From an uncultured virus (IMG/VR IMGVR_UViG_3300022555_000016) (Duplodnaviria; Heunggongvirae; Uroviricota; Caudoviricetes), in the IMG/VR virus record IMGVR_UViG_3300022555_000016: 64,000 nucleotides of DNA; one strand, given 5' to 3'. Within the stretch, counting starts at the first letter, position 1. Every line of letters starts with the position of its first letter. Below are positions 11,347 to 38,064 of this stretch, one piece after another. The translations under genes were made by a program, and so were the position numbers. The notes under the pieces are model-generated. The model was not told the DNA's origin, searched no databases, and worked only from the letters and a program-made list of their open reading frames with translations.

Positions 11347-11760
11347 ATGCGCTTAGAGAATCCGTTGAAGACGTACGATAACGTTGAGAACCGGGTGTTT
11401 TCCTGCCAGTTTCATGCGGTATTCTGTCCCAAGTACCGTAGGAAACTTCTGACCCCTCCTATAGCAGAATGTTTAACCAACTTCATTTTAAAGAAACAGA
11501 AGGCTATAAACTACAAGGTACTAGAGATTAACGTTCTAGTAGACCATGTTCACTTGGTACTCAGTATTGACCCGTCACACAGCATGCAGTCAATCATTGC
11601 CGAAATTAAGTATCAATCAAGTCCTATGTTAAGGAAAGAGTTTCCAGAGCTTAAAACCAAACTATCTACTGTTTGGAACCGGGCTTACTTTATCAGTACT
11701 GTTGGTAACTTGGATTCAATGGACATACCCAAGTGGCTTCAGAATCAGAAGAATATTTAA
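11347..11760 (+). CDS. tnpA: IS200/IS605 TnpA (Y1) homolog with the catalytic Tyr replaced by Trp
   Basis: FCPKYRRKLL, HUH motif DHVHL, WxRxYFISTVG. The YxxxQ helix reads KWLQNQ. Confidence 0.85.
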   Translation: MRLENPLKTYDNVENRVFSCQFHAVFCPKYRRKLLTPPIAECLTNFILKKQKAINYKVLEINVLVDHVHLVLSIDPSHSMQSIIAEIKYQSSPMLRKEFPELKTKLSTVWNRAYFISTVGNLDSMDIPKWLQNQKNI

Positions 11761-11773
11761 CGGGAGTTAAGTC

Positions 11774-13309
11774 ATGTGTGCAGGCTGTGGTAAGGCTAAT
11801 CATCACCCGGATGAATCAGAGAAGCCTAAACTTAAAGCTAAACCTTTGAAACATCGTCCTCGACATATTACCCGTCGCCCTAAGAAAATTAAGTATCCTG
11901 AAGAAGTTGCTTCTGCCAAAAAAGCAAGGAAAGCTTTAGACAAAGAGCTATCAGAGGAGATACCTCTAAAATTCAATAGTTTATTTCCTGAATTCTTACT
12001 TACTCCTAAAGTTTATACAGGATTACTGAAGGAGACGTGTAATGATTGTGACTTAGAAGACGACGGTTTCATAATCCCTATGACTAAAAAAATAGGAGGT
12101 CGTAGAAAAACTCATGAACATCACGTAGCAGATGTTAAACGTGTTCATGATGATAGGGTTATTGTATTAGGTATATATAACGGTAATAAAAATAAAATCC
12201 TCTATGGCTGTAAGGAAGGTCATACTTGGTACGCTACTCCTAACAATATAATACAAGGTAAAGGTTGCCCTTATTGTGCAAGTAATCGTAAGAAGACGCA
12301 GCCTGAGCACATAGCAGACGTTAAGCAAGTTCATGGTGACAATGTTATTGTGTTAGGTATTTATATAAATGCCCATACCAAAATCCTCTATGGCTGTAAG
12401 GAAGGTCATACTTGGTATTCTAAGCCTAAAAACATTTTATCAGGTTATAGTTGTCCAAAATGTTCTAAAAACCGTATGAGGACGCAGCCTGAGCACATAG
12501 CAGACGTTAAGCAAGTTCATGGTGACAATGTTATTGTGTTAGGTATATATACAGGCGCACAAGTAAAAATTCTCTACGGATGTAATAAGGGTCATACATG
12601 GTATGCTAAACCGTATCATATATTAAGCGGTACAGGCTGTCCGTTCTGCAACGGTGGAATTCCTTTTACTCATGAACATCACGTAGCAGATGTTAAACGT
12701 GTTCATGATGATAGGGTTATTGTATTAGGTGTTTACACTAGAGCACATGTAAAAATCCTCTATGGATGTAAAGAAAAAGGACACACTTGGTATGCTACAC
12801 CTAATAGTATACTTAATGGTAGAGGATGTCCGTTCTGTAGTAACTCAGGCTACTCTAAGTCAGGTATTAAATGGTTAACTGCTGAAGAAAAGAGGTTAAA
12901 AATAAAAATAAAACACTACAAAAATATCGGCGAACATAGGATACCTACCTGCAATAATGGAAGAAAAGACATCAGATTGGATGGTAAACTAATAGGTAAC
13001 TTAGGGTTTTTGAAGGTTGCGTTTGAGCACCACGGCGATAGTTATCATGGAAACCCTGCTAAGTTTAAGCCTAATGATAAATGTAATCCTTACCGAAAGA
13101 ATACGCCAGCTAAGACTCTTTACAAAGAGACTATAACTAGAGAGAACTTTATCCTGTCTAAAGGTTTTGTTGTCATCAGGATATGGTACTCTGAGTTTAT
13201 CGAAAATAAGCGTGCTATCATGATTATATCTAGCACTAATAAAAATAAGAAACTATACAAAGGTTTGGCTAAAATGTGGGGTTATAAACCTGAGATTAGA
13301 GTAATATAA
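11774..13309 (+). CDS. Four tandem Zn-ribbon repeats plus a C-terminal Vsr/PD-(D/E)XK-like endonuclease
   Basis: Four 62-aa CxxGHxW...GCPxC repeats (186-bp period). C-terminal RLDG...FEHHGDSYHG...VIRIW. Confidence 0.8.
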   Translation: MCAGCGKANHHPDESEKPKLKAKPLKHRPRHITRRPKKIKYPEEVASAKKARKALDKELSEEIPLKFNSLFPEFLLTPKVYTGLLKETCNDCDLEDDGFIIPMTKKIGGRRKTHEHHVADVKRVHDDRVIVLGIYNGNKNKILYGCKEGHTWYATPNNIIQGKGCPYCASNRKKTQPEHIADVKQVHGDNVIVLGIYINAHTKILYGCKEGHTWYSKPKNILSGYSCPKCSKNRMRTQPEHIADVKQVHGDNVIVLGIYTGAQVKILYGCNKGHTWYAKPYHILSGTGCPFCNGGIPFTHEHHVADVKRVHDDRVIVLGVYTRAHVKILYGCKEKGHTWYATPNSILNGRGCPFCSNSGYSKSGIKWLTAEEKRLKIKIKHYKNIGEHRIPTCNNGRKDIRLDGKLIGNLGFLKVAFEHHGDSYHGNPAKFKPNDKCNPYRKNTPAKTLYKETITRENFILSKGFVVIRIWYSEFIENKRAIMIISSTNKNKKLYKGLAKMWGYKPEIRVI

Positions 13310-13318
13310 GTTAGATTC

Positions 13319-13360
13319 AAGCCAAGCCTATTAAGAGATATCTCTTAATAGGCTTGGCTT
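13319..13360. terminator. Perfect 42-bp palindrome, probable bidirectional terminator
   Basis: AAGCCAAGCCTATTAAGAGAT|ATCTCTTAATAGGCTTGGCTT between convergent genes. Confidence 0.8.
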
Positions 13361-13366
13361 TTATGA

Positions 13367-13729
13367 TTAAGCATTAGTAGGAAGTAAGTTTAGAACAGCA
13401 TCAGTACCAACAGAAGTCAAGGCTAATAATACAAAAATCATTGGGCTACTGATATTGATATAACTAGGAATCTGGGCGGATATAACACCTGCCGCAGATA
13501 TCGCTAAAGAACTACAAGGTATCTCGTAAAGTGCCTCATACGAGTCCAAATAGACGGTATTCGCCCCAGTGGATGACGTATTCTGAGCACGCCCAATAAT
13601 TATTATTCTTCCCGGAGTCTGGTCAATTCTCAAAATAGTAGGTACTGGAATGTCCGCAGACACGGGAAAATAGCTATACAGGCCGAGTCTCGAGTTTAAC
13701 GAGAATTGCACTGGGTTCACTAACGGCAT
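13367..13729 (-). CDS. Hypothetical protein
   Basis: 120-aa ORF with AAGGA RBS and promoter motif at 13814-13822. Confidence 0.65.
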   Translation of the reverse strand: MPLVNPVQFSLNSRLGLYSYFPVSADIPVPTILRIDQTPGRIIIIGRAQNTSSTGANTVYLDSYEALYEIPCSSLAISAAGVISAQIPSYINISSPMIFVLLALTSVGTDAVLNLLPTNA

Positions 13730-13846
13730 GGTTGTAATCCTTAGACTAATTATTGTTAAAGTAGAAACGTAGAAAGCAATGGAAAAGACATTTTTGTTAT
13801 TATAGTTATAACTAAAATTAAGTTATTGAATCTAAACTATTAGAAG

Positions 13847-14074
13847 TTAGTTATGCCAGGGGTGGCAAGTCACGTCTTTTCCCGTTCGTACCAACCAAAT
13901 GTTGGAACCTTTCTTACGAAGTTTTGAAGGAACTAGATGAGCTGCCACCGCAATAATGCGATTCTCGAGGACGAATTCGACTGCAAGTTGGATAGAGTGC
14001 TCGGATACATCGAGTACCCGAGCTTTTAACCTTGTTTGAGTATCGTTAGACGGAGTAAACTGCTTTGCTGGCAT
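13847..14074 (-). CDS. Hypothetical protein
   Basis: 75-aa ORF in a minus-strand gene run. Confidence 0.5.
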   Translation of the reverse strand: MPAKQFTPSNDTQTRLKARVLDVSEHSIQLAVEFVLENRIIAVAAHLVPSKLRKKGSNIWLVRTGKDVTCHPWHN

Positions 14075-14122
14075 GGAAAAATGTGCTCTTGATCACTGTT
14101 AAAACGGGTTGATGAAAAAAGA

Positions 14123-14677
14123 TTAAGGTTTAAGTGGCTCAGTGTATTCTTTTACTATAGTAATTGGGTAGTCAAACTGTGGAGGGTTTTGTGGTAGCTT
14201 ATAGCCAGGCGGAAGTGTTTTGGTCAAGGTTATGTGAGGCTTGTATTGAGGGTAGTCAAAACTAGCACCTAACCGTTTAGCTATCTGATGACGAAGCTGA
14301 AGGAATGTACTTTTAAACTCCACTGCTACTACTAGCTTGTCCGTACCTAAAATAGTTAAATTTCTCCAACCTTTATTGATTATTGGTGTGCTTAGAGTGT
14401 CTAGGCACGGGTACTGCTTAACTGGTTTACGACTATAGACTATGGTCGTGTGGTATTCAGAGGGATTAAGTAGATTCGGCAATTTCAAATGACGGGCGTA
14501 AACGTCTAGTGCATGTACTGTATTCAGTGAGAATTTTACGGCAACACATAGACCAGGATCGTTAATTACATCATGAATACTCTTATAAGAGAGTAATTCG
14601 TATGAATCTAGATAATCAGATGAGTCAGATGAGTCAATTTCAAAAAGATCAAAGGAATCAAAGAACGAATCCATCAC
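14123..14677 (-). CDS. acb1: Acb1 / T4 gp57B-like 2H phosphoesterase (anti-CBASS nuclease family)
   Basis: GLxVAxKFS, HTTIVYSR, LxxRHxxAxxLGAxxDY, YKPHITL and EYxEPLK match the T4 57B pattern as I recall it. Both HxT motifs are intact. Confidence 0.85.
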   Translation of the reverse strand: MMDSFFDSFDLFEIDSSDSSDYLDSYELLSYKSIHDVINDPGLCVAVKFSLNTVHALDVYARHLKLPNLLNPSEYHTTIVYSRKPVKQYPCLDTLSTPIINKGWRNLTILGTDKLVVAVEFKSTFLQLRHQIAKRLGASFDYPQYKPHITLTKTLPPGYKLPQNPPQFDYPITIVKEYTEPLKP

Positions 14678-14678
14678 A

Positions 14679-15242
14679 TTAACCTTTCTTAGTACCTGCT
14701 TTTTCTACTCCAGCCGCGTCTAAAGTCCACTTGGACAATGTATCTACGGGTTTATTAACGTCTACAGGCTTGATCAGCTTAACATTTCGCATGTTAGACA
14801 AGCGAGTAAACACTATTCGAATTATACCAGGAATGGCCTCAACTGCTGCTTTCTCAGATAACGCTTTTCCAACATCTGTTGACGGATCGCTCATTATCTT
14901 AAGGGCCAAGTCTTTAGCACTCTTAGGAGCCTTGCTCAGTTCTTGAACGATAGCGTCAGATAGAAGCTCCGGGAACAATTTTTTAGGTTGCCCACTACTA
15001 TTGGCCGAAAGATAATATTGCATTCTGATTGCTGCCGTCGTTTCGTGATTCGTAGGGATATGCAACATTTTCTTTAGTACATGGACCGCAACAGGGTAGA
15101 AAGAATCACTATTGGTACCGTATTGTTTGGCTGATTGTTCTTTAGCTTGATCCCATAGGGTCTCAGCGTGTTTTAGTGTAATCTGCTTCTTATTGTGTTT
15201 ATTAGCCTTAGCAACTAAACTTTTCAACATAGGAAGCGGCAT
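14679..15242 (-). CDS. Hypothetical protein, possibly virion-associated
   Basis: 187 aa, AGGAG RBS, promoter motif at 15277-15285. Confidence 0.7.
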   Translation of the reverse strand: MPLPMLKSLVAKANKHNKKQITLKHAETLWDQAKEQSAKQYGTNSDSFYPVAVHVLKKMLHIPTNHETTAAIRMQYYLSANSSGQPKKLFPELLSDAIVQELSKAPKSAKDLALKIMSDPSTDVGKALSEKAAVEAIPGIIRIVFTRLSNMRNVKLIKPVDVNKPVDTLSKWTLDAAGVEKAGTKKG

Positions 15243-15294
15243 AGTTTAAACTCCTTTAGAAACCTACTTAACAATTAAAATTAGGTTCTTGTAA

Positions 15295-15834
15295 TTAAAG
15301 TGCGTAGGGAAGTAGTTGTTTTAAACTGCTCAGATCGTACACGAGTAGATAATTACCGACAGAAGAGTCTTTGACAAACATAGCGGTATAGCGGTCAGAC
15401 ATATGCTTAATCCATAAGGTAGAGTTGTCTTCGTACAAAGAGAAATAAATGAATCCTAACAATCTTTTAATGGGCAGCTTCTTTAGCATCAAGTTTTTAA
15501 TGAGATAGTCAACACACTCCACATGCTCGTCTGGTGTTTTGTTTTTAGCAAGATTGGTCATCTTTGGCGAGTTTTCCACCAGGAACCGGATAAGTTTTTC
15601 AGAAGGTTTACCTTGCTCTGGCACTAACCGATTAACTTTAATTGAGTATTTATAAGTCAGACCTGTGGAGAAGAAAGGCGTTGAAAACACAAGGTTCCCT
15701 GCCCCGTAGACACTATCCACAGCTATTACCAATTCTCCTCCGCTGTACCACGAACGACTCTTTACAAATTCAGTTTGTTCTTTAGTAGTAGATAACGGCT
15801 CAACCTCTCCCTTATCCATAGGTAGAACAGACAT
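15295..15834 (-). CDS. Hypothetical protein
   Basis: 179 aa, AGGAG RBS. Confidence 0.7.
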   Translation of the reverse strand: MSVLPMDKGEVEPLSTTKEQTEFVKSRSWYSGGELVIAVDSVYGAGNLVFSTPFFSTGLTYKYSIKVNRLVPEQGKPSEKLIRFLVENSPKMTNLAKNKTPDEHVECVDYLIKNLMLKKLPIKRLLGFIYFSLYEDNSTLWIKHMSDRYTAMFVKDSSVGNYLLVYDLSSLKQLLPYAL

Positions 15835-15875
15835 GAAAAACTCCTAACTTAAAACGTGTTCGGTAACGTAGAGGT

Positions 15876-17186
15876 TTAGGCTGGAGCGAGTCGCACTCTG
15901 GTAACCACAGTGATTCTAGAACCATTGAAGGTGTCGTGTTTCTTGACGCCTCCTGTCAGAGTGAAAATTTGACCGGCCGCGCCAGCACGGATATCGGTGG
16001 GAGGATTACTGGCCCACCAAGTTATTTGGTTCCCTGTACCAACTTCTTCAAATTTAACCAAATAGCAGATTCCAAACTGAGACTCTATCGGCTTAGGCAA
16101 GGCTAATAGCTTTGCTTTAACGGTTATTTTTTGGCCTAATTCTCCAACCCAGTTCTGGCCTGATTCAGGCTTACTATCGGACTCTTTCCTCTTAGCCATT
16201 GCTTTATCATAGTACGGAATAATTGAGGCCGCGTAACCGAAGAACTTGGTCTCTATGGGACGGTTATTACGGTAAGCACCAATAATTCCAAGTAGATTAT
16301 GTTCATAGTCAGACCGCTTATGCATAGGCTTAGCGGAGATAAGTTTCTCAGATTCTTCAATTATCTCTTTAGCTTTTTCAAAGTCAGCTTCAGAGACAGG
16401 TAAGGGCTTAAAATGCTGGTCAGGCTTACGAAAGATGTTCTCCATAACATTTGAACTGGTGGACGGCATTGAATCAGACGAAGCCGCCTTAGACACCCAA
16501 CCGTACTTCTTAATAACCACTAAAGCATGAGCTAATAGCACGTTAAGAGGACAGGCCATAGGCTCACGAGGACCACGTTCCTCGTCTTCAAGATCAGAAA
16601 TAGCTTTGTCAAGTTGGTTCAACGCTGTAGCGTAACCTAGGAAAAGGGCCGGGTCAGTATGACCCAGGAAATCTTTAAGGCAAGAGCTACCAATACACTG
16701 GATTTGGGCTGATTTAGGCTTAGTTGAATTGAAAACTACATATGTCTGCCGACGATCTCTCTTGGTGTGGCAGTAGGAACATTCGGGAGCCGCCTCCCTG
16801 TATTTCAGAGGTACAGGAGGTAAACTAGTATCAGGAACCACGTTGATTATCGGTGTACCAAGTGTATGATCAATAACCGCCAATAGAGTCCAATCGTTCA
16901 ACTTAGGTGCCTTACCCTCAACCCGCATTAAATAGTACAAAACCTTGGTGATGTCTTTACCGACACGGATTGGTTTAAATTCTTCACGAATTTTGGTCAA
17001 AGTTATCGGTGACACCTTTAATTTAGCAGCTTTCTTGTTAAGCTCTGCAATCTTGCCTTCAAGCCAAGCAACATTGGCGGCAGGCACCAATAGCTCACGG
17101 TAGTTGACTGCAGTGACAGTATCTGCAGTGACAGGCAATAGTTTGGACTGAAGGTAATAATCAATTCTTTGTAGTAACGTGCTCAT
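15876..17186 (-). CDS. Phage protein with a CxxC Zn site and an OB-fold-like C-terminus
   Basis: CSYCHTKRDRRQTY...GSSCLKDFLG. N-terminal LLQRIDYYL followed by VTA twice. Confidence 0.65.
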   Translation of the reverse strand: MSTLLQRIDYYLQSKLLPVTADTVTAVNYRELLVPAANVAWLEGKIAELNKKAAKLKVSPITLTKIREEFKPIRVGKDITKVLYYLMRVEGKAPKLNDWTLLAVIDHTLGTPIINVVPDTSLPPVPLKYREAAPECSYCHTKRDRRQTYVVFNSTKPKSAQIQCIGSSCLKDFLGHTDPALFLGYATALNQLDKAISDLEDEERGPREPMACPLNVLLAHALVVIKKYGWVSKAASSDSMPSTSSNVMENIFRKPDQHFKPLPVSEADFEKAKEIIEESEKLISAKPMHKRSDYEHNLLGIIGAYRNNRPIETKFFGYAASIIPYYDKAMAKRKESDSKPESGQNWVGELGQKITVKAKLLALPKPIESQFGICYLVKFEEVGTGNQITWWASNPPTDIRAGAAGQIFTLTGGVKKHDTFNGSRITVVTRVRLAPA

Positions 17187-21369: not shown

Positions 21370-21765
21370 TTAAGGCTTTGACAAAATGAAGTCGGCTAAG
21401 TCCTGATCAAATTTATTAACGTGTTTTTGTATCCAAGGACTGACGGAATCGTATAAATCTACGTCAGTTAAACAGCCACGCTTTATTTTGTTTCGTATAT
21501 CGGACAGTCTTCCTAAGGTGACAAGGTGATCGTTACGGTGGGAAAGTAGGTAACTATAACCGAGTCGTCTCGCAATTACTTCTTCGTGGACGAAATGGAT
21601 GTGAATAGCATCTATTAACGTCGCTACCTTCTTTTCAAGGGACTTCTCTACGAACTTGTCAGATTCTAGCAAACTGTTAATCAAGTTATAAATGTATTCG
21701 TGCTCTGTGTCTATTGACTTAACACCTACTAATTGTGGTTTGTTAACTGTGAATCTACCAGCCAT
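21370..21765 (-). CDS. Bacteriohemerythrin
   Basis: GVxxIDxEH, HFxxEE, HxxxH and HxxxxD di-iron ligand pattern. Confidence 0.85.
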   Translation of the reverse strand: MAGRFTVNKPQLVGVKSIDTEHEYIYNLINSLLESDKFVEKSLEKKVATLIDAIHIHFVHEEVIARRLGYSYLLSHRNDHLVTLGRLSDIRNKIKRGCLTDVDLYDSVSPWIQKHVNKFDQDLADFILSKP

Positions 21766-21792
21766 GACTCTGAATCCTAGCGACTATATAGC

Positions 21793-22908
21793 CTAAGAAA
21801 GAACATCGCGAACTATGTCTCTAAATTCTTTTAGCAAGTGGTAATCATAATGACCTTCATCTTCAAACATGATTCGTAGAGCCTGCTCGTTATTGACAGC
21901 TGGTCGATAGCTTCTAGTATCCGTGAGCGCAGCGAACGAGTCAACTATAGCAGCCATTCTACCTAAAGGATGCAGCTTGTTTATGGGTATTCGTGGATAA
22001 GAGCCTTCCCCGTTGTCTACACGGCAATGGTGTTGTTCTACGATAATTCTGGTGGTTTGAGGAACCTCATTACCTGATTCCTTCAGGGCTTGGAGGCCAA
22101 GAGCCACGTGGGTTTTTAGTATTTCGTACTCAGATGGGGTTAGTGGTGTAGTCTTGTTAATTAACGCCAATGGTAGCTTGACTTTACCGAAGTCGTGCAT
22201 TATACCGCCGGAGCATAAACTAACCTGCTCACTTTGACTAACTAATCCTATGTTGCTCCCAAACAAGGTCAATAGTGAGGCAACTCTAATAGAGTGAGCG
22301 AACGTAGTACCATCAAATTCTTTGATAGATTCTAACACAGCACCGTAATTAGAATTAGACATTAAGTTAACAATGGGTAAACAAGCATCACGAATTTCGG
22401 CGTACTTGAAAGTGTTAGACTTTTGAAAGGCTTGAAATACATTCTTAAATGTTGTAACGCTTTTCTTTAGAGCATACGCCTGCTCCTTAGGCAATAATCC
22501 TAAGCTATTGTCGGTATCAGTACCTGTGAAGAAAGCCGTAACTTTACTCAATGTTAAAGGACCAAAAGGACGTAATAGTATTTCAACAGCTCCTGCTTTA
22601 GTGGCATTAGAAAATATACGGTGCTCCTCGTCAGAGGAGATATCTCGACTCGATAAATTGTATACCAGAATTACCGGTATCTTAGCGAAAGTCCTGTGCT
22701 GTTTAAGCATAGACGTGAGGGTAATAGACCCAATAGCTACCGCTTCGTCTATGATAATAAGGTCAGGCAGGTTAACAAACAAACCAACAGGCAGTTTGTT
22801 TATAATCGAATACCGTGACACCGAAAAGAACGGGGAGAGGTAACTGACTAACTCTGTTAAATAACTGCGATCCCCGAGAACGGATATTTTAGGTTGATTT
22901 TGTTCCAC
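21793..22908 (-). CDS. HD-GYP phosphodiesterase with a degenerate N-terminal receiver domain
   Basis: TFAHSIRV, HDFGK, HHxRxD..GSYP, IVDSFAALT..RSYRPA. N-terminal PDLIIID REC-like region. Confidence 0.85.
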   Translation of the reverse strand: MEQNQPKISVLGDRSYLTELVSYLSPFFSVSRYSIINKLPVGLFVNLPDLIIIDEAVAIGSITLTSMLKQHRTFAKIPVILVYNLSSRDISSDEEHRIFSNATKAGAVEILLRPFGPLTLSKVTAFFTGTDTDNSLGLLPKEQAYALKKSVTTFKNVFQAFQKSNTFKYAEIRDACLPIVNLMSNSNYGAVLESIKEFDGTTFAHSIRVASLLTLFGSNIGLVSQSEQVSLCSGGIMHDFGKVKLPLALINKTTPLTPSEYEILKTHVALGLQALKESGNEVPQTTRIIVEQHHCRVDNGEGSYPRIPINKLHPLGRMAAIVDSFAALTDTRSYRPAVNNEQALRIMFEDEGHYDYHLLKEFRDIVRDVLS

Positions 22909-22933
22909 CGCGACACCTTTTGTTCTATTTATT

Positions 22934-23500
22934 CTATTTATTGTACCTATTTAGATAAGAATCAATGTCAGACAGCAGTGCTGATTTAATTTCTAACATT
23001 CCAGGCTTATACAGCAAAGGGTGACCGTAGAAAGACATGTCAACTAGACCTATGTATCTGGACCGCCGAAAGCGTGGACAATCTTGATTATTATCCTGGA
23101 CACAGATAGATTCTCTAGCTCTCTTGCAACGGCAATTTTGATCAACTACTTTAGCTACGTCATCATCAATGAACTGAATCTGCTCGGGTGAGAATACAAT
23201 AATTTCTTTGTAATAGTCATTGTATTCAACACCGTCGTAACCATTCTGTTTCAATTGTTTAACGGCCAAACGGATGTAGTTGGTGATATCTCCTCCTCGA
23301 CCGCTTTCTAACCAGCTAGAGTATTCACTGAACGGTGCCGGGTTGTTACAGGTCAAGTAGGCGGAGGCTACTGTACAACCTAACCTGTCAGCTTCCGCTT
23401 TAGCTTTTAGGTAGTCGGAGGTAAACCGGTACCCTAATCCTAATGCTCCGAGCTTAAAAAGGCTAGACAGGTGTGCTGCTATGAAATAGATTTTGGACAT
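22934..23500 (-). CDS. Degenerate ART-PolyVal-like (ADP-ribosyltransferase fold) protein
   Basis: GxGYxFT, AYLxxxNP, GYDGV...EIIVFSPEQI. The IDxYL motif sits at the C-terminus. Confidence 0.45.
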   Translation of the reverse strand: MSKIYFIAAHLSSLFKLGALGLGYRFTSDYLKAKAEADRLGCTVASAYLTCNNPAPFSEYSSWLESGRGGDITNYIRLAVKQLKQNGYDGVEYNDYYKEIIVFSPEQIQFIDDDVAKVVDQNCRCKRARESICVQDNNQDCPRFRRSRYIGLVDMSFYGHPLLYKPGMLEIKSALLSDIDSYLNRYNK

Positions 23501-23645
23501 TGTGGTCTCACTTTTTAATAAGATATTTCATCTAGAAGCTGTTGTCTATTTGATCTCTATTACGGTCATTTTGGTTACCTCTCGTTTTAAACTTTAAGAG
23601 GTACGGCTAGCACAATATGAGATAACCGTACCTCAATGCAAACAG

Positions 23646-25761: not shown

Positions 25762-25771
25762 CTTTTTTGTG

Positions 25772-26713
25772 TTAGTCTAGCAAATTAGAATAGGAGTGCA
25801 ACGATGAAAGGTTACCGGTTTCCAAGTATTCAACAATACAGTCAATTAGATTGTTCTCGGCTTTAGACAAGTCACCAGCATGTTTGGCATCTGGGTTATG
25901 CTGGTGCTTCTTAGCCATGCCAATCAGGAACTCGTTGTTCTCGTGTATTTTCTTTAGTTCTTTGAGCAACAGGGGTAATGACGGTTTGCTAGTTGCTGCA
26001 GTTACTGGTTTGGTTTCAGGAGTAGCTGGAACTTGGGGCAGTTCAACAGAATCTGGGTTGACCAATTCTGGAATTACCGCAGGTTCGGTGGAGGCACTTG
26101 CTGTCGCATTAGCAAAAATCTTCTGCATCAAAGCGACACCTGACAACAAGGTTTTAATTGCTGGTAAGATGACTGCCTTAACTGTATCAGGTACGTCATG
26201 CCGAGTTTTGATCAGTTCTAACATAGTCTCGTAATATTTACGGTTGGCAATGAAGAACTTGGTCGCAGAACCCACGTCAGAATAGTTAAAGGTTACTGAA
26301 CCGTCGTTGTTAATTTTGTAATCAGCATCACCGAACACGCTGGGTGGAATAATCGGAATAATCGACCGAATCAGAAAAGCCGGAGGTTCAATGTAGCCTA
26401 TCTTCTTGAGTTTGTCTACTAGTGCCCTATCCATCATACCCCAGACAGGAACGTTTAATTTATTAACTTCTAGGACGCCTTTAACAATGGACCTCGGTGA
26501 ACCAAAGCATGCTACCATCTTAAGCATTCCGCCGCGTTGGGGGCGAACAGCTAAACATCCGTCAGAGTCCCCATAAAACTGCCAGCTACTAGCACGCTGT
26601 AGGAACTTTTCTTTGGTCCAGGCGTAGCCGGTAGCTTTTAGATAAGATTCGTTTAGCAGGTTGTAGGCTTGATCTAAATCAATATCTACTGAGGATTCAA
26701 TAGGTAAGGTCAT
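25772..26713 (-). CDS. Hypothetical two-part protein with a PVTAA linker
   Basis: Likely start ATG 26713 (MTLPIE), just after the upstream stop codon. Confidence 0.7.
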   Translation of the reverse strand: MTLPIESSVDIDLDQAYNLLNESYLKATGYAWTKEKFLQRASSWQFYGDSDGCLAVRPQRGGMLKMVACFGSPRSIVKGVLEVNKLNVPVWGMMDRALVDKLKKIGYIEPPAFLIRSIIPIIPPSVFGDADYKINNDGSVTFNYSDVGSATKFFIANRKYYETMLELIKTRHDVPDTVKAVILPAIKTLLSGVALMQKIFANATASASTEPAVIPELVNPDSVELPQVPATPETKPVTAATSKPSLPLLLKELKKIHENNEFLIGMAKKHQHNPDAKHAGDLSKAENNLIDCIVEYLETGNLSSLHSYSNLLD

Positions 26714-26717
26714 GTTT

Positions 26718-28367
26718 TTAATCCACAAATTTGTAGGGGTTATAGACCAAATCTGGTAGCGAAACTTTTTCAGAAGATTCCGATTCATCAGGCTTAACGG
26801 AATAAGTGACCCCACCTTTTTCAGGATGGACTAGAGTTATTTTACCTGAAAGATTCAGAGTTGAATCACTTTTATTTACTATAGTAACCTTATCGCCTAA
26901 TTTGTATTTGGTGTACTCTGGATTAGTCTCTTGTAGAGTAGCGACATAGTCGTTATAGGACCACAGCTTATAAGGTGTTCTGAATAACACTACTGAAGCA
27001 ACTCGCTTAGGAATAATCCAATCACGTACATCAAATTTGGACCTAACTATCATAATAGAAAATGGGAGATCGGCAAAGTCGGGTAATTCTTTCAACGACA
27101 CGTTTTGTAGGACTAACTTATCTATAACTTTAGGAAGGTCAATCGGTAACGATGCAATTGGCGTATCGACAATTTTAATGTTATCTATACGATTAGACGG
27201 TGCTGATATCTTAGGGAAAGCCGTTACTTTAGGACAGTTACTAATTGTCAAGTTTTCACAGATGACATCGGGTAGTTTGGTTACTCTCAAGTCGTTAAAA
27301 GTAACGTACTGAGATTCTACTGCTTGAGGTAATGTGCCTGTATACCCTTCAAAAGCCACAAGGTGACCACACTTTAAAACTGGTGGAAATTTACCTTTAG
27401 TTGCAAGTTTACTAGTAAAATTGAGCCCTCCGTGAAGATTGTCTTCAGGAAAAGATAGGCTGCCAACTGACCACATCTTCAAGGCTTTATCACGATCCGT
27501 TTCCCACAATTCAAGAGAGGGTTCAGACTCTGGAATTACGTTCTTGAAAATCTTCAACAACTGACAATAGGCACCGGAGGCTATCCAGGTCTGCGCTGGT
27601 TCATTTGTATGAATAATTCCCTCGCCGTTGTCTCGAATTCCGCCGATTCCAAGGGACAACAACACCTTGGTCCACATTGGCGGTCTAGATTTCTTGAAGT
27701 CGGCAGCGTTCTTGATTTTTACTAGACGATAAGCAACCATACGGGTTAGAGTCCACAGGAGACCTAGAGGGTGTTCAACAAGGTGTTCATAATCATTGTC
27801 CGAACTAGCCATGTGTATAGCGTCATGTAAGGCTTGCAATTGGCCTAGAGTAACATTGCTATGAGGAATGTGGAACTTAGTTAAATAAGCAACCAAGGCT
27901 TTCTCAGTAGTTTTATCGTAAGGGTTGACTTCAAACAACTTAGGTTCTTGTTTGTCCCATATTTTTATTAACTGTTGTACGTCGCGAGACAAATTAGCGT
28001 AGGAATAGGTACCTGAGTCTAAAAGTCGCAACGGACCAGTAAACTTAAAGAAGATAGCATAAGGTTGATCAGCAGCAAATGGAAAGTTAACTACATCTTT
28101 CATAGTCTTTTGATTAGTTGAATCTCTGTCACCGTAGTACTTTACAGAAGAGGCCAAGGAATACCCAAAGATTCCTGTAGGGGTGTCATATTGCCCTATT
28201 GGATTGATTCCCAACTTTGGCAGGTCAGCAAACCTAATAAACACATCGTTACTGGTTTCGTTCTTGGTGAAATAGTCTAGGACAGTTTCATCTTTGAAAT
28301 CGCTACGGCGCTTACACTCTACCAGATAAGCGTCGATTTCTTGCCAGATTTTGTGCTCTGTAGACAT
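26718..28367 (-). CDS. Phage protein with an LRR-like C-terminal region, IDxYL family
   Basis: IWQEIDAYL, KLGINP...YDTPxGIFGY, LxxLP repeats. Confidence 0.65.
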   Translation of the reverse strand: MSTEHKIWQEIDAYLVECKRRSDFKDETVLDYFTKNETSNDVFIRFADLPKLGINPIGQYDTPTGIFGYSLASSVKYYGDRDSTNQKTMKDVVNFPFAADQPYAIFFKFTGPLRLLDSGTYSYANLSRDVQQLIKIWDKQEPKLFEVNPYDKTTEKALVAYLTKFHIPHSNVTLGQLQALHDAIHMASSDNDYEHLVEHPLGLLWTLTRMVAYRLVKIKNAADFKKSRPPMWTKVLLSLGIGGIRDNGEGIIHTNEPAQTWIASGAYCQLLKIFKNVIPESEPSLELWETDRDKALKMWSVGSLSFPEDNLHGGLNFTSKLATKGKFPPVLKCGHLVAFEGYTGTLPQAVESQYVTFNDLRVTKLPDVICENLTISNCPKVTAFPKISAPSNRIDNIKIVDTPIASLPIDLPKVIDKLVLQNVSLKELPDFADLPFSIMIVRSKFDVRDWIIPKRVASVVLFRTPYKLWSYNDYVATLQETNPEYTKYKLGDKVTIVNKSDSTLNLSGKITLVHPEKGGVTYSVKPDESESSEKVSLPDLVYNPYKFVD

Positions 28368-28414
28368 TGGATTAGTACCCTTTTCGGCTATTCGTTACTA
28401 ATCTAGCTAGGGAA

Positions 28415-28831
28415 TCAATTACAACGATCACCGTAGTTTTCTTTGAGAAAGTCACCAAATTGTTTGTCTTCGGTGGTAATGTGTTTGTACAACCAAACAT
28501 TCAACATTTCTTTGTAACGGTCGAAGACATCAAGGTGACATCGCTCAAAGGCGTTAATTAGAATAGCAATCTCGTTGATAAATTCCCAATGTTCTCTAAT
28601 ATGCTCTTCGCGTCTAGGGTAATGGTATTGAGTCATTAACCACTCTTCACGCGTGAGGTGCATATTAGAGTAATCAGCTAAATCACACAAGTACTGACTC
28701 AACGTAGCTCTACAGGCTACGTCAATCTTGTTAACTCGGTCAATAAGTTCTAGAATCATTTTATGATCCATATCTATGTTTTTGTCTCCTACGGAAAGAG
28801 AGTCGTCCCAGATAATAGGAGAGTACGGCAT
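28415..28831 (-). CDS. Bacteriohemerythrin
   Basis: WxxxLSVG..IDxDH, HLTREE, HIREH, WLxxHIxxED. Confidence 0.9.
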   Translation of the reverse strand: MPYSPIIWDDSLSVGDKNIDMDHKMILELIDRVNKIDVACRATLSQYLCDLADYSNMHLTREEWLMTQYHYPRREEHIREHWEFINEIAILINAFERCHLDVFDRYKEMLNVWLYKHITTEDKQFGDFLKENYGDRCN

Positions 28832-28875
28832 TTTTGAAAACCTTAACTTAAAAACGTAAAACCAAAAACGTAGTA

Positions 28876-29358
28876 TTAACAGGTTTTAGAGTCTAGAAAT
28901 TCAATGTGGTGTTTCAGACAACCGGGTAGGCATAGTTCCGGCATATCGTCAACTAGGATGGTGCAACCGTACTGCTTGGCAGCGAAGCCTTTGTAATTAG
29001 TCAGGTTGTCGTAATCTCGTTGAACTTCGTCCATAAAGTCCTTAGTGTACGTTTTGAACAGTTTAGGGTTAGTCTTCTTTTGATTGAATATCCGTAGAGC
29101 TTGGGAGCCAAGTTCCTTAGTGTTCTCGTCTAAACACTTGATTGCTCTAATTAAGGATAAATCAAACCCGTAAGTGCCTAGCTCTTTTGAGATACCCCTA
29201 GCATCCTGTTTAGTACGGAAAGTTATTATATAGTAAGCCTTATCAGGATGGTTCCTAACGTAATCTCGGATGCGTTTACAGTGCTTACCGTTACCTAGTA
29301 GCGTGTCGTCGTAGTCCAGAGCAATGGTTTGGTGATAGTCTAAGTCTGATAAGGGCAT
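28876..29358 (-). CDS. HAD-superfamily phosphatase-like protein
   Basis: IALDYDDTL (DxDxT), IITFR, K...ILVDD. Confidence 0.7.
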   Translation of the reverse strand: MPLSDLDYHQTIALDYDDTLLGNGKHCKRIRDYVRNHPDKAYYIITFRTKQDARGISKELGTYGFDLSLIRAIKCLDENTKELGSQALRIFNQKKTNPKLFKTYTKDFMDEVQRDYDNLTNYKGFAAKQYGCTILVDDMPELCLPGCLKHHIEFLDSKTC

Positions 29359-35259: not shown

Positions 35260-35267
35260 CTAATTTT
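35260..35267 (+). promoter_or_regulatory. Putative phage promoter motif CTAATTTT
   Basis: Upstream of the second TnpA-like cassette and in the same orientation. Confidence 0.5.
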
Positions 35268-35364
35268 TGTTTGAAGGGTAAAATTTTAATGGATAAAAAT
35301 GAATCAAAAAATTCAAAAAAGTAAAAACCTTAGTTCTGAGGGTTCAACTTAAGGATTTAATTAA

Positions 35365-35781
35365 ATGCCTCTCTACAATACTCCGCCTAAAGTTTACAGC
35401 GTAACAGAAACTAGAACGTCAAGCTGTCAGTATGTAGTTTCTTTTTGTGTAAAGTACCGGCGTAAAGTTCTAACTTCACCAGTTAACACATTTCTAAGAG
35501 ACTTTATAATGAATAACCAGAAGGTAATAGGTTATAAAATTATCTCTCTGGACATATTTATTGACAACGTACAAATGGTTATAGAAGTTGAACCTAAAAT
35601 TGGGATTCATAAAGTTATAACAAATATCAAAGGGAACTCGACCCCTTTGCTAATGCGTAAATTCCCAGAGCTAAAAAGTCGTGTCAGCACTGTCTGGTGC
35701 AAAGCGTACTGGGTTTCCACACTCGGTAAAGTAAACACTTTTGATTTATTCTCTTGGCTTGAAACTCAACATAAGTCTTAA
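35365..35781 (+). CDS. tnpA: IS200/IS605 TnpA homolog lacking both the HUH motif and the catalytic Tyr
   Basis: FCVKYRRKVL and WxKAYWVSTLG are retained. HUH reads DNVQM and YxxxQ reads SWLETQ. Confidence 0.8.
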   Translation: MPLYNTPPKVYSVTETRTSSCQYVVSFCVKYRRKVLTSPVNTFLRDFIMNNQKVIGYKIISLDIFIDNVQMVIEVEPKIGIHKVITNIKGNSTPLLMRKFPELKSRVSTVWCKAYWVSTLGKVNTFDLFSWLETQHKS

Positions 35782-35805
35782 ACTCTTTTAGAAGGATTAG
35801 TAGTC

Positions 35806-38064
35806 ATGTGCCCAGGTTGTGGCAGTAAAGAACATCTTCCGATTACACCTTCGGTTTCTTTAAACAAGCATAGCGTCCCTCTAGTGAGCTATGCTACAGG
35901 AGTAGCGATACCAGTTACTCCTGAGTCAAAGGAAGACTCCACTATTGAAACTCCGGTCGCTAAAGTGACTGGTCCTAGCAAAACTAAGTCTAAGCGTCAC
36001 CTTAAAGCCTTACGTATGAACAAGAAACGTACCAGGAAGGAAGTTAAGGAGTCTGTAATTCGCAAGGTTGATCATGAACCTAGGAATTTTTTGAAACCTA
36101 GGTTCGTTAAACGGATTCCTAAAAAGACTCGGTGTGGAAAAGTTGAAGGTGCTACACCTACCACGGTACTTGATAGCTTCACAGTTAATCGGGTTAAAGA
36201 TATCGGGGTTGACTCTTTGACAGAGAAGGAGTTGAAGAAACTTAATAAAGAATCACGGAGTCCTGAAGTCAACAAGGTTAAGGATTTAATTGTTGAGGAG
36301 ATTGGTAGACAAGAAGCTGCGTACGCAATAATTGATTGGAAAGAGGCTAAAAAGTATCCTTTTCTTGATATCGAATATTTTAAAGAGTTTGACACTCAAC
36401 CTTTAACTCCTTGTAGATTACATAAAGGCGGAGTTCGTAAAAATCAATGGGAGTTTAAATGTGATATCTATCGTTTAAGGGGAGTATCAGTACAAGTAGC
36501 AGGAGTTTATAGTTGCGCTAATGAGGCAATTGATTTTCTATGTACAATGTGTGGGCATATTTGGTCATCACTACCATCCAGCATGTGTAAAAGACCTTAT
36601 GGTGGGGTATGTCCGTGTTGTAAATCGGCTAAAAGACTAGTAACAGTTACACCGAATCAGCATATATTAGATGTTAAAAACGTTCATGGTAATAAATTAT
36701 GGCCTTTAGACCCATACGTAAGGTCTAATATAAGAATTCGCTATATCTGTTGTGAAGGCCATATATGGTCAGATATCCCTGGTAATATTTTACAAGGATA
36801 CGGTTGTAGGAAATGTTACGCTAAGTCTAGAACTAAAACTAACGAGCAACACATTATGAAGGTAAAAGAAATACACGGAAACACCGTGTGGCCTCTAGAT
36901 ACTTATATAAAAGCAGATATAAGAATTCATTATACCTGTTGTGAGAGTCATGTATGGTTAGCATTCCCTTCATCCGTAGAAAGCGGAACAGGCTGTAGTA
37001 TATGTTTTTCTAATAGTCGTATATTAGACCCTCAAGAAGTCTTAGAAAGACTCATTAAAGTTCATGGTAATAAATATACGTTTCTTAGTCCTTACATAAA
37101 CTCTAATACATACATAGAAGTAGTATGCAATAAAGACGGTTATAGATGGAAGGCTCGAGCCAGTGATCTACTAAGCGGTTCTGGATGTATGAAGTGTGCT
37201 ATAAGCAGTAGAGGCTTTTCTCACGAGGAGTATGTGTCTTTAGTTTTTGAAACACATGGAAATAATGTTAATGTTTTAGGAAAATTTGAAAAAACAACTA
37301 AACGCTTATTACACGCTTGTCCGAAAGGACACACTTGGTTGACTACTCCTAACTCTATATTGTACAATAAATCTGGATGTCCTAGGTGTAAAGGTTTAAA
37401 ACCTTATTATCTAGACGAGTATGTACAAAAACTTATTGATTGCGGAAATAAGTTTATTACTTTAGAAGACTACGTCAATAATTCTACTAAAATTTGGCAT
37501 CAATGTACTAAATGTGGACATAAACGTAAAATGTCACCACATCAGGTAATTAACCAAAACGTTAGTTGCATAAACTGTACTAACAAGAGTAGTTATAGTA
37601 ATGAGAGTATATCCTGGTTAACTCAAGAAGAAAAGAGACTAAATATTAAAATAAGAAAAGCTACATCACCTGATGGTGAGTTTCATATCCAAACCTGTGA
37701 AAACAGACGTAGGGATATTAGGGTAGATGGTATTTTAATAGGTAAGCTAGGAAATAGGTATAAGGTAGTTTTTGAGTACGAGGGCAGCCACGTCCACGGC
37801 GATCCAAACGTTTTCGGTCCTGATGACCAATGTAGTCCGTACAACGATAAACCCGCAAAAGTTCTTCTAGCAGAAACTTTATCCCGCAGAGATAAAATCT
37901 TAAAGAAAGGCTATGTAGTTATCTACTTATGGTCTTCTGCCTGGAAACACTACACTCATAGCAAAGCCACTATGGTCATATCTAACTACACTAAGCACCC
38001 TAACATCTATCGTAGTTATGCCAAACGCTGGGGCTACAAAGTTGAATACCGTAAATTGACTTAA
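35806..38064 (+). CDS. Six tandem Zn-ribbon repeats plus a C-terminal Vsr/PD-(D/E)XK-like endonuclease
   Basis: MCPGCG start, about six C..GH.W....GC..C repeats, RVDG...FEYEGSHVHG. C-terminus homologous to 11774..13309. Confidence 0.8.
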   Translation: MCPGCGSKEHLPITPSVSLNKHSVPLVSYATGVAIPVTPESKEDSTIETPVAKVTGPSKTKSKRHLKALRMNKKRTRKEVKESVIRKVDHEPRNFLKPRFVKRIPKKTRCGKVEGATPTTVLDSFTVNRVKDIGVDSLTEKELKKLNKESRSPEVNKVKDLIVEEIGRQEAAYAIIDWKEAKKYPFLDIEYFKEFDTQPLTPCRLHKGGVRKNQWEFKCDIYRLRGVSVQVAGVYSCANEAIDFLCTMCGHIWSSLPSSMCKRPYGGVCPCCKSAKRLVTVTPNQHILDVKNVHGNKLWPLDPYVRSNIRIRYICCEGHIWSDIPGNILQGYGCRKCYAKSRTKTNEQHIMKVKEIHGNTVWPLDTYIKADIRIHYTCCESHVWLAFPSSVESGTGCSICFSNSRILDPQEVLERLIKVHGNKYTFLSPYINSNTYIEVVCNKDGYRWKARASDLLSGSGCMKCAISSRGFSHEEYVSLVFETHGNNVNVLGKFEKTTKRLLHACPKGHTWLTTPNSILYNKSGCPRCKGLKPYYLDEYVQKLIDCGNKFITLEDYVNNSTKIWHQCTKCGHKRKMSPHQVINQNVSCINCTNKSSYSNESISWLTQEEKRLNIKIRKATSPDGEFHIQTCENRRRDIRVDGILIGKLGNRYKVVFEYEGSHVHGDPNVFGPDDQCSPYNDKPAKVLLAETLSRRDKILKKGYVVIYLWSSAWKHYTHSKATMVISNYTKHPNIYRSYAKRWGYKVEYRKLT

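What the first reader, a model, noticed from the sequence alone, without database searches (positions are those of the whole stretch)
11347..38064. Twice-repeated two-gene system: catalytically dead IS200-type TnpA plus a tandem Zn-ribbon endonuclease
Seen: two plus-strand cassettes (11347-13309 and 35365-38064) inside minus-strand regions. Each has a CTAATTTT motif, a ~137-aa TnpA homolog, a gene starting MCxGCG with 4 or 6 Zn-ribbon repeats and a Vsr-like nuclease, and a terminator hairpin. Both TnpAs have Trp at the YxxxQ Tyr (KWLQNQ, SWLETQ), and the second has also lost HUH (DNVQ). I saw no IS end hairpins flanking either cassette. Known: Y1 transposases need HUH and the Tyr, bind ssDNA hairpins, and normally pair with TnpB or IscB. 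Inference: both ORFs stayed intact across two diverged copies with the same Y-to-W change, which suggests a domesticated hairpin-binding TnpA acting as partner, inhibitor or targeting subunit of the nuclease. I know of no described system like this.
Basis: partly seen in the sequence, partly recalled or inferred. Interest (0 to 1): 0.85.

Follow-up and report, generated by a model that had tools for sequence, protein, structure and literature searches.

The report
Dead transposase riding homing-nuclease cassettes
A large freshwater phage carries two copies of a small mobile cassette in which a selfish DNA-cutting (homing endonuclease) gene is preceded by a transposase relative that has lost its catalytic residues yet has been kept intact by selection, so it appears to have taken on a new, still unknown job.

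Summary
Two plus-strand cassettes (11347-13309 and 35365-38064) lie in a minus-strand phage genome. Each encodes a Y1_Tnp (IS200/IS605 TnpA) homologue, then a protein with 4 or 6 CapR/DUF4379 zinc-ribbon repeats and a Vsr-like C-terminal domain.

- **Catalytic loss:** Trp130 of copy 1 aligns with the catalytic Tyr127 of IS608 TnpA. Copy 2 has also lost HUH (NVQ).
- **Nuclease half:** it belongs to a homing-endonuclease (HEG) architecture described in 2025 (PMC12350094).
- **Mobility:** cassette 1 is a discrete insertion. One metagenome contig joins 11222 to 13373 without it. An independent protein record carries the gene ending (…PTNI) that this empty allele predicts.
- **Selection:** between the two copies, synonymous sites are saturated (pS 0.86). 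The TnpA-like gene is as constrained (pN 0.39) as the nuclease domain (0.36).
- **Paralogues:** two further catalytically impaired TnpA-like proteins (P0126 Y→F, P0127 HUH→SIH) form one well-supported clade with the window's two, probably in the same ~208-kb genome.

Best reading: these are free-standing HEG cassettes carrying a domesticated, catalytically dead TnpA as an accessory nucleic-acid-binding protein. Its role (control or aid of the nuclease) is inferred, not shown. I found no conserved linkage outside this phage. I found no publication describing the pairing.

The parts
11223..13372 (+). Cassette 1 as a unit: the segment missing from the cassette-less allele
   Evidence: One contig in run X1 joins 11222 to 13373 with 27 other letters between. 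The first letters of the 27 resemble 11227-11236, so the true left edge is about 11237. Protein P0285 ends ...PTNI, as that allele predicts.
11301..11313 (+). Shared upstream motif CTAATTTTAGTTT, a possible promoter element of cassette 1
   Evidence: The exact pattern occurs only here and at 35260. Statistical support is weak.
11347..11760 (+). T1: TnpA-like protein, HUH kept (HVH), catalytic Tyr replaced by Trp130
   Evidence: Pfam Y1_Tnp E 9.1e-30. Alignment to IS608 TnpA. AF2 model pLDDT 85.4. Best Foldseek hit IS608 TnpA 2vjv_A, E 9.2e-13.
11774..13309 (+). N1: homing-endonuclease-like protein with a basic N-terminal extension starting MCAGCG, 4 CapR/DUF4379 zinc-ribbon repeats and a Vsr/EDxHD-like C-terminal domain
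   Evidence: Pfam DUF4379 E 6.6e-28 and CapR 8e-23, 4 stretches each. PHROG 559/681 endonuclease E 1e-59. MTES_1575 E 0.0019, below its cut-off.
13319..13360 (.). Perfect 21+21 nt palindrome at the 3' end of cassette 1, terminator-like and part of the inserted segment
   Evidence: It lies inside the part skipped by the empty allele.
35260..35272 (+). Shared upstream motif CTAATTTTTGTTT of cassette 2
35365..35781 (+). T2: TnpA-like protein, HUH lost (NVQ), catalytic Tyr replaced by Trp
   Evidence: Pfam Y1_Tnp E 2.3e-21. Alignments.
35806..38064 (+). N2: homing-endonuclease-like protein with a ~230-aa N-terminal extension starting MCPGCG, six zinc-ribbon repeats and the same C-terminal domain (50% identical to N1's)
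38083..38120 (.). 16-bp stem hairpin after cassette 2, terminator-like

Best explanation
Each cassette is a free-standing homing-endonuclease element inserted between two co-oriented phage genes. Its second gene is a member of the CapR-like/EDxHD-Vsr-like homing-endonuclease group. By inference, this nuclease cuts the cassette-less allele of a co-infecting relative, so that repair copies the whole cassette in.

Its first gene descends from an IS200/IS605 TnpA but can no longer do tyrosine-mediated strand transfer. It keeps the TnpA fold and is held by purifying selection.

I take it to be a domesticated nucleic-acid-binding accessory protein that travels with the nuclease. Most likely it restrains or times the nuclease's expression or action, in the way a controller gene sits ahead of a restriction endonuclease or an antitoxin ahead of a toxin. 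Less likely it helps homing.

Shown: gene identities, loss of catalytic residues, constraint, and unit-wise presence/absence. Inferred: homing itself, and any role of the TnpA-like protein.
For: - **Gene identities and residue mapping:**
- **Nuclease architecture in print:** 3-5 CapR/DUF4379/DUF723-like domains plus an EDxHD/Vsr-like domain, described as homing endonucleases in phage introns (PMC12350094, passages read). The CapR domain is a zinc-finger DNA-binding domain shared with ICP1 homing endonucleases (PMC8096241, passages read).
- **Homing behaviour of a relative:** a 307-aa relative in megaphage LR756504.1 lies between two halves of a ribonucleotide reductase gene, and the first half ends in an intein-like sequence.
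- **Empty allele:** one X1 contig (depth 2.4 against 27) joins 11222 to 13373. The right-flank protein variant P0285, on one other contig, ends ...AVLKLLPTNI against ...AVLNLLPTNA in the window, as that joint predicts.
- **Constraint:** pS is 0.86 (saturated) and pN 0.39 for T1/T2. For the nuclease C-domains pS is 0.84 and pN 0.36. T1 keeps 18 and T2 keeps 16 of 23 positions that are at least 80% conserved in 58 canonical TnpAs.
- **Shared ancestry of the dead state:** T1 and T2 are sisters (99/97). They form a starred clade (97/93) with P0126 (Y to F) and P0127 (HUH to SIH). Both of those share the longest contig length 208448 with T1 and T2.
- **DNA binding without the Tyr:** a solved ISDra2 TnpA Y132F mutant bound to its DNA is in the PDB (entry title 2xo6).
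- **Operon layout:** gaps of 13 and 24 nt, each with its own ribosome-binding site.
Against: - No function of the TnpA-like protein was tested.
- No nucleic-acid target was identified. The upstream regions show no significant hairpin. The 3' hairpins look like ordinary terminators of this genome; a similar one lies at 10763-10824.
- No second genome with the same pairing was found.
- The empty allele rests on one low-depth contig plus one protein record.
- The nuclease domain assignment is weak by HMM. MTES_1575 is below its cut-off. Phage VSR-annotated hits score E about 6e-3. Its AF2 model was poor (pLDDT 60.7), and Foldseek found no hit at E 0.001 or better.
- Cleavage and homing are inferred from family membership only.
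Confidence: 0.55

Rival explanations
1. Physical two-subunit enzyme. The dead TnpA binds the nuclease, perhaps through its unusual MCxGCG basic N-terminal extension. It then acts as its hairpin-recognising targeting subunit or its direct inhibitor.
For: The two genes are tightly coupled in both copies. N1 and N2 share an N-terminal extension that the 307-aa megaphage relative lacks. Both partners diverged by about the same amount.
Against: No direct evidence for contact. The N-terminal extensions are barely alignable beyond MCxGCG. Relatives of the nuclease exist without any TnpA-like gene.
Confidence: 0.2
2. Unrelated cargo. The dead TnpA serves the phage rather than the nuclease. For example, it could act as a dominant-negative or end-binding blocker of IS200/IS605 transposition, including the phage's own TnpB-only elements. 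It merely hitch-hikes in a homing cassette.
For: The same window holds two copies of a 2-kb TnpB-only element (47458-49474 and 57039-59068, 90.6% identical) with a strong 5' hairpin and no active TnpA nearby. TnpA active sites are built in trans across the dimer (abstract of PMC3597680, seen in the listing), so a Tyr-less subunit could poison a dimer. Tyr-less TnpA relatives occur without such nucleases.
Against: Both window copies keep the same nuclease partner through about 60% sequence divergence, and the empty allele lacks both genes. No similarity between cassette sequences and the TnpB element ends was looked for.
Confidence: 0.13
3. Relic. The cassette descends from an IS200/IS605-like transposon in which a protein-guided homing endonuclease stood in TnpB's place. 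The TnpA gene is now a functionless remnant on its way to decay.
For: Catalytic residues are being lost stepwise: T1 has lost Tyr only, T2 has lost Tyr and HUH. There is no left-end hairpin. In the profile search, 35 of 151 aligned rows had F and 7 had W at the Tyr column (3 of the 7 W rows are the window's own proteins), and many had broken HUH motifs. So inactivation is common.
Against: Both ORFs are intact, with a single 1-aa indel, after synonymous saturation. pN equals that of the nuclease domain. 16-18 of 23 core positions are kept. Four such paralogues are probably maintained in one genome. Exactly identical proteins are seen on 28-29 contigs.
Confidence: 0.1
4. Still a transposase. The protein uses another nucleophile, and the cassette moves by single-strand peel-and-paste.
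For: T1 keeps HUH and the Gln of Y-x3-Q. A subterminal hairpin lies 12 nt from the right edge of the inserted segment.
Against: There is no Tyr in the C-terminal helix of either protein. T2 lacks HUH as well. No left-end hairpin. All classes of the superfamily share the HuH and Y motifs (PMC6006769, passage read).
Confidence: 0.02

Closest known systems
CapR-like / EDxHD-Vsr-like homing endonucleases of phages (Presence of group II introns in phage genomes, NAR 2025, PMC12350094)
   Same: Several ~60-aa CapR/DUF4379-type zinc-ribbon domains followed by a ~100-150-aa Vsr/EDxHD-like C-terminal domain. Found in phage genomes. Selfish, insertion-like placement.
   Different: Here the gene is free-standing (no intron; Rfam found only a tRNA in the window). 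It has a long basic N-terminal extension starting MCxGCG. It is preceded in the same cassette by a TnpA-derived gene.
IS200/IS605 TnpA (IS608 and ISDra2 Y1 HUH transposases) with TnpB
   Same: Same fold and 38-39% identity to IS608 TnpA. Same size. First gene of a two-gene mobile unit whose second gene is a nuclease that, in IS605, maintains the element by homing (abstract start of the bioRxiv preprint 10.1101/2023.11.20.567912, listing).
   Different: The catalytic Tyr is replaced by Trp, and HUH is lost in one copy. No left-end hairpin. The partner is a protein-guided nuclease, not TnpB or IscB. Controls: 79 of 80 IMG/VR loci and all 80 metagenome alignments that reached the Tyr column have Tyr.
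   Same: Inserted between conserved genes, with own expression signals, present or absent among close relatives, and polymorphisms next to the junction.
   Different: Those are single-gene elements, as far as I recall.
Regulatory 'heads' on homing nucleases noted earlier in this scan (e1-5674544, RHH pairs) and Arc repressors of IS605 elements (bioRxiv 10.64898/2026.09.24.754181, abstract start seen)
   Same: A small nucleic-acid-binding gene stands ahead of a selfish nuclease or transposon gene.
   Different: Different fold (ribbon-helix-helix against HUH/TnpA). The regulatory role here is only inferred.

Membership tests
IS200/IS605 TnpA (Y1 HUH transposase) | Y1_Tnp fold and sequence family | tested here: met
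   Pfam E 9.1e-30 and 2.3e-21. Foldseek hit to IS608 TnpA, TM 0.77-0.84.
IS200/IS605 TnpA (Y1 HUH transposase) | Catalytic Tyr in Y-x3-Q of the C-terminal helix | tested here: not met
   W130 aligns with Y127 of IS608 TnpA. T2 has W at the same column.
IS200/IS605 TnpA (Y1 HUH transposase) | HUH metal-binding motif | tested here: inconclusive
   T1 has HVH, T2 has NVQ. So the feature is met in one copy and not in the other.
IS200/IS605 insertion sequence | Subterminal hairpins at both ends | tested here: not met
   Upstream regions fold no better than shuffles. Only 3' terminator-like hairpins are present.
IS200/IS605 insertion sequence | Accessory TnpB or IscB next to tnpA | tested here: not met
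   The downstream gene is a DUF4379/CapR protein. The window's TnpB-like genes lie 9.5 kb or more away.
CapR-like/EDxHD-Vsr-like homing endonucleases | Array of CapR/DUF4379-like zinc-ribbon DNA-binding domains | tested here: met
   DUF4379 E 6.6e-28 and CapR 8e-23 in N1. DUF4379 2.5e-15 and CapR 2.5e-05 in N2.
CapR-like/EDxHD-Vsr-like homing endonucleases | C-terminal EDxHD/Vsr-type nuclease domain with conserved acidic and His residues | tested here: inconclusive
   MTES_1575 E 0.0019, below its cut-off, and in N1 only. tblastn to phage 'putative VSR endonuclease' genes, E about 6e-3. D399, D403, E418 and H425 are invariant between N1 and N2. The AF2 model was too poor for a fold match.
CapR-like/EDxHD-Vsr-like homing endonucleases | Behaves as a mobile insertion (alleles with and without it) | tested here: met
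   Joint 11222 to 13373 in one contig, and protein P0285 with the predicted ending. Shown for cassette 1 only, on thin data.
CapR-like/EDxHD-Vsr-like homing endonucleases | Site-specific cleavage of the empty allele | not testable with these tools
   Needs an enzyme assay.
REP-associated tyrosine transposases (RAYT) | Catalytic Tyr; flanking REP arrays | tested here: not met
   No Tyr. RAYT 4er8 is only rank 30 in the fold search. No repeat arrays around the cassettes in the self-comparison.

The most novel reading that the evidence does not exclude
A clade of catalytically dead Y1 transposases has become the hairpin-recognising half of a two-protein homing machine. The dead TnpA binds a single-stranded DNA hairpin, either the cassette's own subterminal palindrome or resected break ends. 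It thereby tethers donor and cut recipient, or gates the nuclease. This would be a protein-guided counterpart of the TnpA-TnpB partnership, and it has multiplied to four copies in one phage genome.
Probability: 0.12. Interest if true: 0.85.

Novelty: new variant of a known kind. Interest (0 to 1): 0.62.

Why it matters
Homing endonuclease genes are usually treated as one-gene parasites, and IS200/IS605 TnpA as an enzyme. Here a TnpA that cannot catalyse is conserved as the lead gene of a homing cassette. It has diversified into what are probably four paralogues in one phage.

If it controls or assists the nuclease, that would be a new way for selfish nucleases to be tamed or aimed. It would also be a natural example of an HUH protein reused purely as a nucleic-acid binder.

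The profile search also suggests that Tyr-less TnpA relatives (Phe or Trp at the catalytic position, often with broken HUH) are common in metagenomes. That class has not been described in any paper I could find.

Tried and rejected
**Searches for the same pairing elsewhere**
- IMG/VR scans with T1, N1, the nuclease C-domain alignment, a motif pattern and P0159 gave nothing relevant.
- The IMG/VR scan with an alignment of impaired TnpAs returned only canonical elements.
It did not return the phage's own contig.
- No DNA match in the phage collection. Protein matches were at most 40% identical and canonical. All 8 phage TnpA loci I fetched sit next to a ~360-485-aa gene of IS605 OrfB size: 7 by annotation and 1 an unannotated 384-aa ORF.

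**Other searches that led nowhere**
- The word-index search with the nuclease C-domain found only the protein itself.
- The profile of the nuclease domain against the PDB gave nothing significant.
- The AF2 model of the nuclease domain had pLDDT 60.7, and Foldseek found nothing at E 0.001 or better.
- Rfam found only a tRNA.

**Results that carry no weight either way**
- Complex prediction of N1 with T1 returned 'no answer', score 0.00.
- No RNA holder was listed among the sequencing runs.
- Runs X6 and X7 cover the flanks but leave 10837-13417 uncovered. No cover is not evidence.
- P0276 (319 aa) is N1 called from an internal GTG. The NUDIX variant P0287 differs by one mid-protein residue. 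Both are uninformative.
- L001 is an unrelated high-GC phage with a TnpB gene and a partial TnpA-like match.

**Literature**
Searches for a dead TnpA with a homing endonuclease (and passages in 71 and 103) found no description. Only open-access PubMed Central papers and bioRxiv preprints were searched.

Full report
**What is there**

The window is a densely coded, about 41% G+C stretch of a large virus-like genome. From 180 to 54459 the four cassette genes are the only + strand ORFs of 90 aa or more that do not lie inside a longer minus-strand ORF. No whole genome is held for it.

The exact proteins of the finding occur on 13-29 public contigs, the longest 208,448 bp. The stretch 10500-14000 is held almost whole by five lake or freshwater metagenome runs from two studies. 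The window also encodes an Acb1 anti-CBASS homologue, a GcrA-like protein, two receiver-domain proteins and a NUDIX protein, plus a tRNA. I read it as a large freshwater phage.

- T1 is at 11347-11760 and N1 at 11774-13309.
- T2 is at 35365-35781 and N2 at 35806-38064.

**The first gene**

T1 and T2 are Y1_Tnp proteins (Pfam E 9.1e-30 and 2.3e-21; PHROG 2577 'transposase'). They are 42% identical with one 1-aa indel.

Aligned by phmmer to IS608 TnpA (2a6m), T1 W130 falls on Y127, Q134 on Q131 and H67/H69 on the HUH histidines. Y127 and Q131 are the residues named in the abstract of PMC3597680 (seen in the listing) and in a passage of PMC6006769. T2 has NVQ for HUH and Trp at the Tyr column. 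Neither protein has another Tyr in the C-terminal helix.

An AF2 model of T1 (13-row alignment, pLDDT 85.4) matches IS608, ISDra2 and IS200 transposases. There are 30 hits at E 0.001 or better, the best being 2vjv_A at E 9.2e-13 with TM 0.77/0.83. The RAYT structure comes only at rank 30. So the fold is kept and the Y1 chemistry is gone.

**How unusual the substitution is**

Among the 120 nearest proteins in the word-index search with T1, 119 have Tyr. Only the window's own protein has Trp.

Canonical controls agree.
- 79 of 80 IMG/VR loci show the Y-x3-Q tail; one ORF (L034) is broken before it. 66 of the 80 have a downstream ORF of 80 aa or more, mostly ~330-390 aa. That is TnpB-sized, but I did not check them by HMM.
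- In the 80 metagenome loci there were 81 alignments: 79 with Tyr and HxH, 1 with Tyr and QxH, and 1 that did not reach the column.

The exhaustive profile search gave a different picture. Its profile was built from the two dead proteins, which may favour their like. Among 152 aligned rows (the 150 listed hits, one earlier protein and T2), 86 have Y, 35 F, 7 W, 13 a gap and 11 another residue. Three of the 7 W rows are the window's own proteins. 93 rows have HxH and the rest have a broken HUH.

On a weakly resolved tree of 121 full-length rows, the Y to F/W state needs 22 changes by parsimony. At least 3 are forced by well-supported branches. Impaired TnpA relatives are therefore common and arose many times.

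**A clade of impaired copies, probably all in this phage**

In a careful tree of 44 rows, T1 and T2 are sisters (bootstrap/SH-aLRT 99/97). With P0126 (Y to F, HVH kept) and P0127 (Tyr kept, HUH to SIH) they form a supported clade (97/93).

P0126 lies on 22 contigs and P0127 on 28. For both, the longest contig is 208,448 bp, the same figure as for T1, T2, N1, N2 and the flanking genes. Neither is encoded in the window. Pairwise identities among the four are 32-42%.

The simplest reading, an inference from equal contig lengths, is that one ~208-kb genome holds four paralogues, each lacking at least one catalytic residue. Because T1 and T2 share Trp, and Tyr to Trp needs two base changes, the Trp was most likely present before they diverged.

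**Selection**

Between T1 and T2 the synonymous proportion of differences is 0.86, beyond saturation. The non-synonymous proportion is 0.39. For the C-terminal domains of N1 and N2 the figures are 0.84 and 0.36. The TnpA-like gene is thus as constrained as the nuclease domain.

Of 23 positions that are at least 80% conserved in 58 canonical TnpAs, T1 keeps 18 and T2 keeps 16. The losses include Tyr130 in both proteins and H23, H67 and H69 in T2. A neutral relic would not have stayed open and foldable over that distance.

**The second gene**

N1 has four and N2 six C-x2-H...C-x2-C units that match DUF4379 and the CapR homology domain. PHROGs 559 and 681 ('HNH endonuclease', 'endonuclease') match at E about 1e-59.

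The C-terminal ~155 residues are 50% identical between N1 and N2, with invariant D399, D403, E418 and H425. Evidence for the nuclease fold is only weak.
- MTES_1575, a restriction-endonuclease-type domain, matches at E 0.0019, below its cut-off, and in N1 only.
- tblastn reaches phage genes annotated 'putative VSR endonuclease' at E about 6e-3.
- The structure model was too poor to settle the fold.

The architecture is in print. PMC12350094 (passages read) describes phage intron-encoded homing endonucleases with three to five ~60-aa CapR/DUF4379/DUF723-like domains and a C-terminal EDxHD/Vsr-like domain. It calls them a large unrecognised outgroup with thousands of UniProt hits. PMC8096241 (passages read) shows the CapR domain to be a zinc-finger DNA-binding domain shared with ICP1 homing endonucleases.

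Relatives of N1 occur in 927 phage records, several annotated as homing or HNH endonucleases. One, in megaphage LR756504.1, lies between the two halves of a ribonucleotide reductase gene whose first half ends in an intein-like sequence. The nuclease half of the finding is therefore a member of a known kind.

**The cassette is a discrete insertion**

I laid four runs on 8000-17000. One contig of run X1 (depth 2.4 beside 27 for the main form) joins 11222 to 13373. It skips 2150 bases and has 27 other letters between. The first of these letters resemble 11227-11236, so the insert runs from about 11237 to 13372. That span covers the upstream region, both genes and the palindrome 13319-13360.

Read on the minus strand, this allele would end the flanking gene (13367-13729) with ...PTNI instead of ...PTNA. 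It would leave about 55 nt before the next gene (10835-11188).

Independently, the protein collection holds a variant of that flanking protein, P0285, on one 4,103-bp contig. It ends ...AVLKLLPTNI, against ...AVLNLLPTNA for the window's form on 25 contigs.

Two traces thus agree on a rare cassette-less allele that lacks both genes together, with amino-acid changes right beside the junction. That is the pattern expected around a homing site. It is thin evidence (one low-depth contig, one protein record) and concerns cassette 1 only.

**Signals**

- The exact motif CTAATTTTNGTTT occurs only upstream of the two cassettes. The statistics are weak: 4 hits with up to one mismatch against 1.21 expected, and 4 of 100 shuffles reach that. 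The upstream regions otherwise do not align.
- They fold no better than shuffles (z from -0.43 to +0.32). So there is no IS-type left-end hairpin.
- The 3' hairpins resemble other terminators of this genome, for example 10763-10824.
- Gaps of 13 and 24 nt with ribosome-binding sites separate the two genes, so they form an operon.

**Linkage elsewhere**

I could not find the pairing in any other genome.
- A W-variant (P0200/P0275) in a Clostridia MAG has unrelated neighbours.
- None of 3 IMG/VR relatives of the nuclease has a TnpA-like gene beside it.
- Neither of 2 phage genomes with nuclease relatives contains any Y1_Tnp match.
- All 8 phage TnpA loci I fetched are canonical.

It is a lead that I could not check.

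**Mechanism**

I commit to this reading. The cassettes are free-standing homing-endonuclease elements, and the TnpA-derived protein is a domesticated nucleic-acid binder that travels with them.

Its position ahead of the nuclease in one operon recalls controller proteins of restriction systems and antitoxins (recalled, not tested here). A solved TnpA Tyr-to-Phe mutant bound to its DNA (title of PDB entry 2xo6) shows that binding survives loss of the Tyr. Control of nuclease expression or action seems to me the likeliest role. Help in homing, or a direct protein partnership, is less likely. A job unrelated to the nuclease remains open, such as blocking IS200/IS605 transposition, given the two TnpB-only elements in the window. 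The Rival explanations section gives the odds.

**Novelty**

The nuclease class and homing cassettes are known. A conserved, catalytically dead TnpA as the lead gene of such cassettes, multiplied within one phage, was not described in any paper my searches reached (passages read in 71 and 103). Only open-access PubMed Central papers and bioRxiv preprints were searched. I rate it a new variant of a known kind.

Noticed in passing
window 47458-49474 and 57039-59068 (minus strand): Two copies of a ~2.0-kb TnpB-only element, 90.6% identical in DNA. The TnpB is 577 aa in the second copy. In the first copy it appears as a 425-aa ORF plus a 114-aa ORF upstream, so it is possibly interrupted. The two proteins are 94% identical. 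A 17-bp hairpin lies at the element's 5' end (z -4.4). No active TnpA is in the window.
   Followed up: partly
outside the window (proteins P0126, P0127): Two further TnpA-like proteins, one with Tyr replaced by Phe and one with HUH changed to SIH. They share the longest contig length (208,448 bp) with the window's proteins and form one supported clade with T1 and T2. Their neighbours could not be seen.
   Followed up: partly
window 14123-14677 (-): Homologue of the anti-CBASS protein Acb1 (Pfam E 3.4e-27).
   Followed up: no
window 50824-51930 (-): A 368-aa protein with GcrA cell-cycle-regulator domains (E 1.5e-18). From memory, this hints at an alphaproteobacterial host.
   Followed up: no
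window 21370-29358 (-): A cluster with two receiver-domain proteins (24209-24934, 24953-25690), two hemerythrin-like proteins (21370-21765, 28415-28831), an HD-domain protein (21793-22908) and an ART-PolyVal ADP-ribosyltransferase-like protein (22934-23500). This is an unusual signalling set for a phage.
   Followed up: no
window 1-185: Head-to-tail repeat with a 29-nt period at the very start of the window (self-comparison).
   Followed up: no
window 44042-44239 vs 46329-46526; 1470-1559 vs 5660-5750: Dispersed direct repeats inside minus-strand genes, 88% identical over 201 nt and 94.5% over 91 nt. They are probably paralogous gene segments.
   Followed up: no
window 42143-42213 (-): A tRNA gene (Rfam, 61.6 bits).
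   Followed up: no
L002 (LR756504.1 435143-442018): In a 636-kb uncultured phage, a 307-aa CapR/Vsr-like endonuclease gene sits between two halves of a ribonucleotide reductase alpha gene. The first half ends in an intein-like sequence.
   Followed up: partly
profile search: Many full-length TnpA relatives in metagenomes carry Phe (35 rows) or Trp (4 rows besides the window's own) at the catalytic Tyr column, often with broken HUH motifs. The class seems widespread, and I found no description of it.
   Followed up: partly
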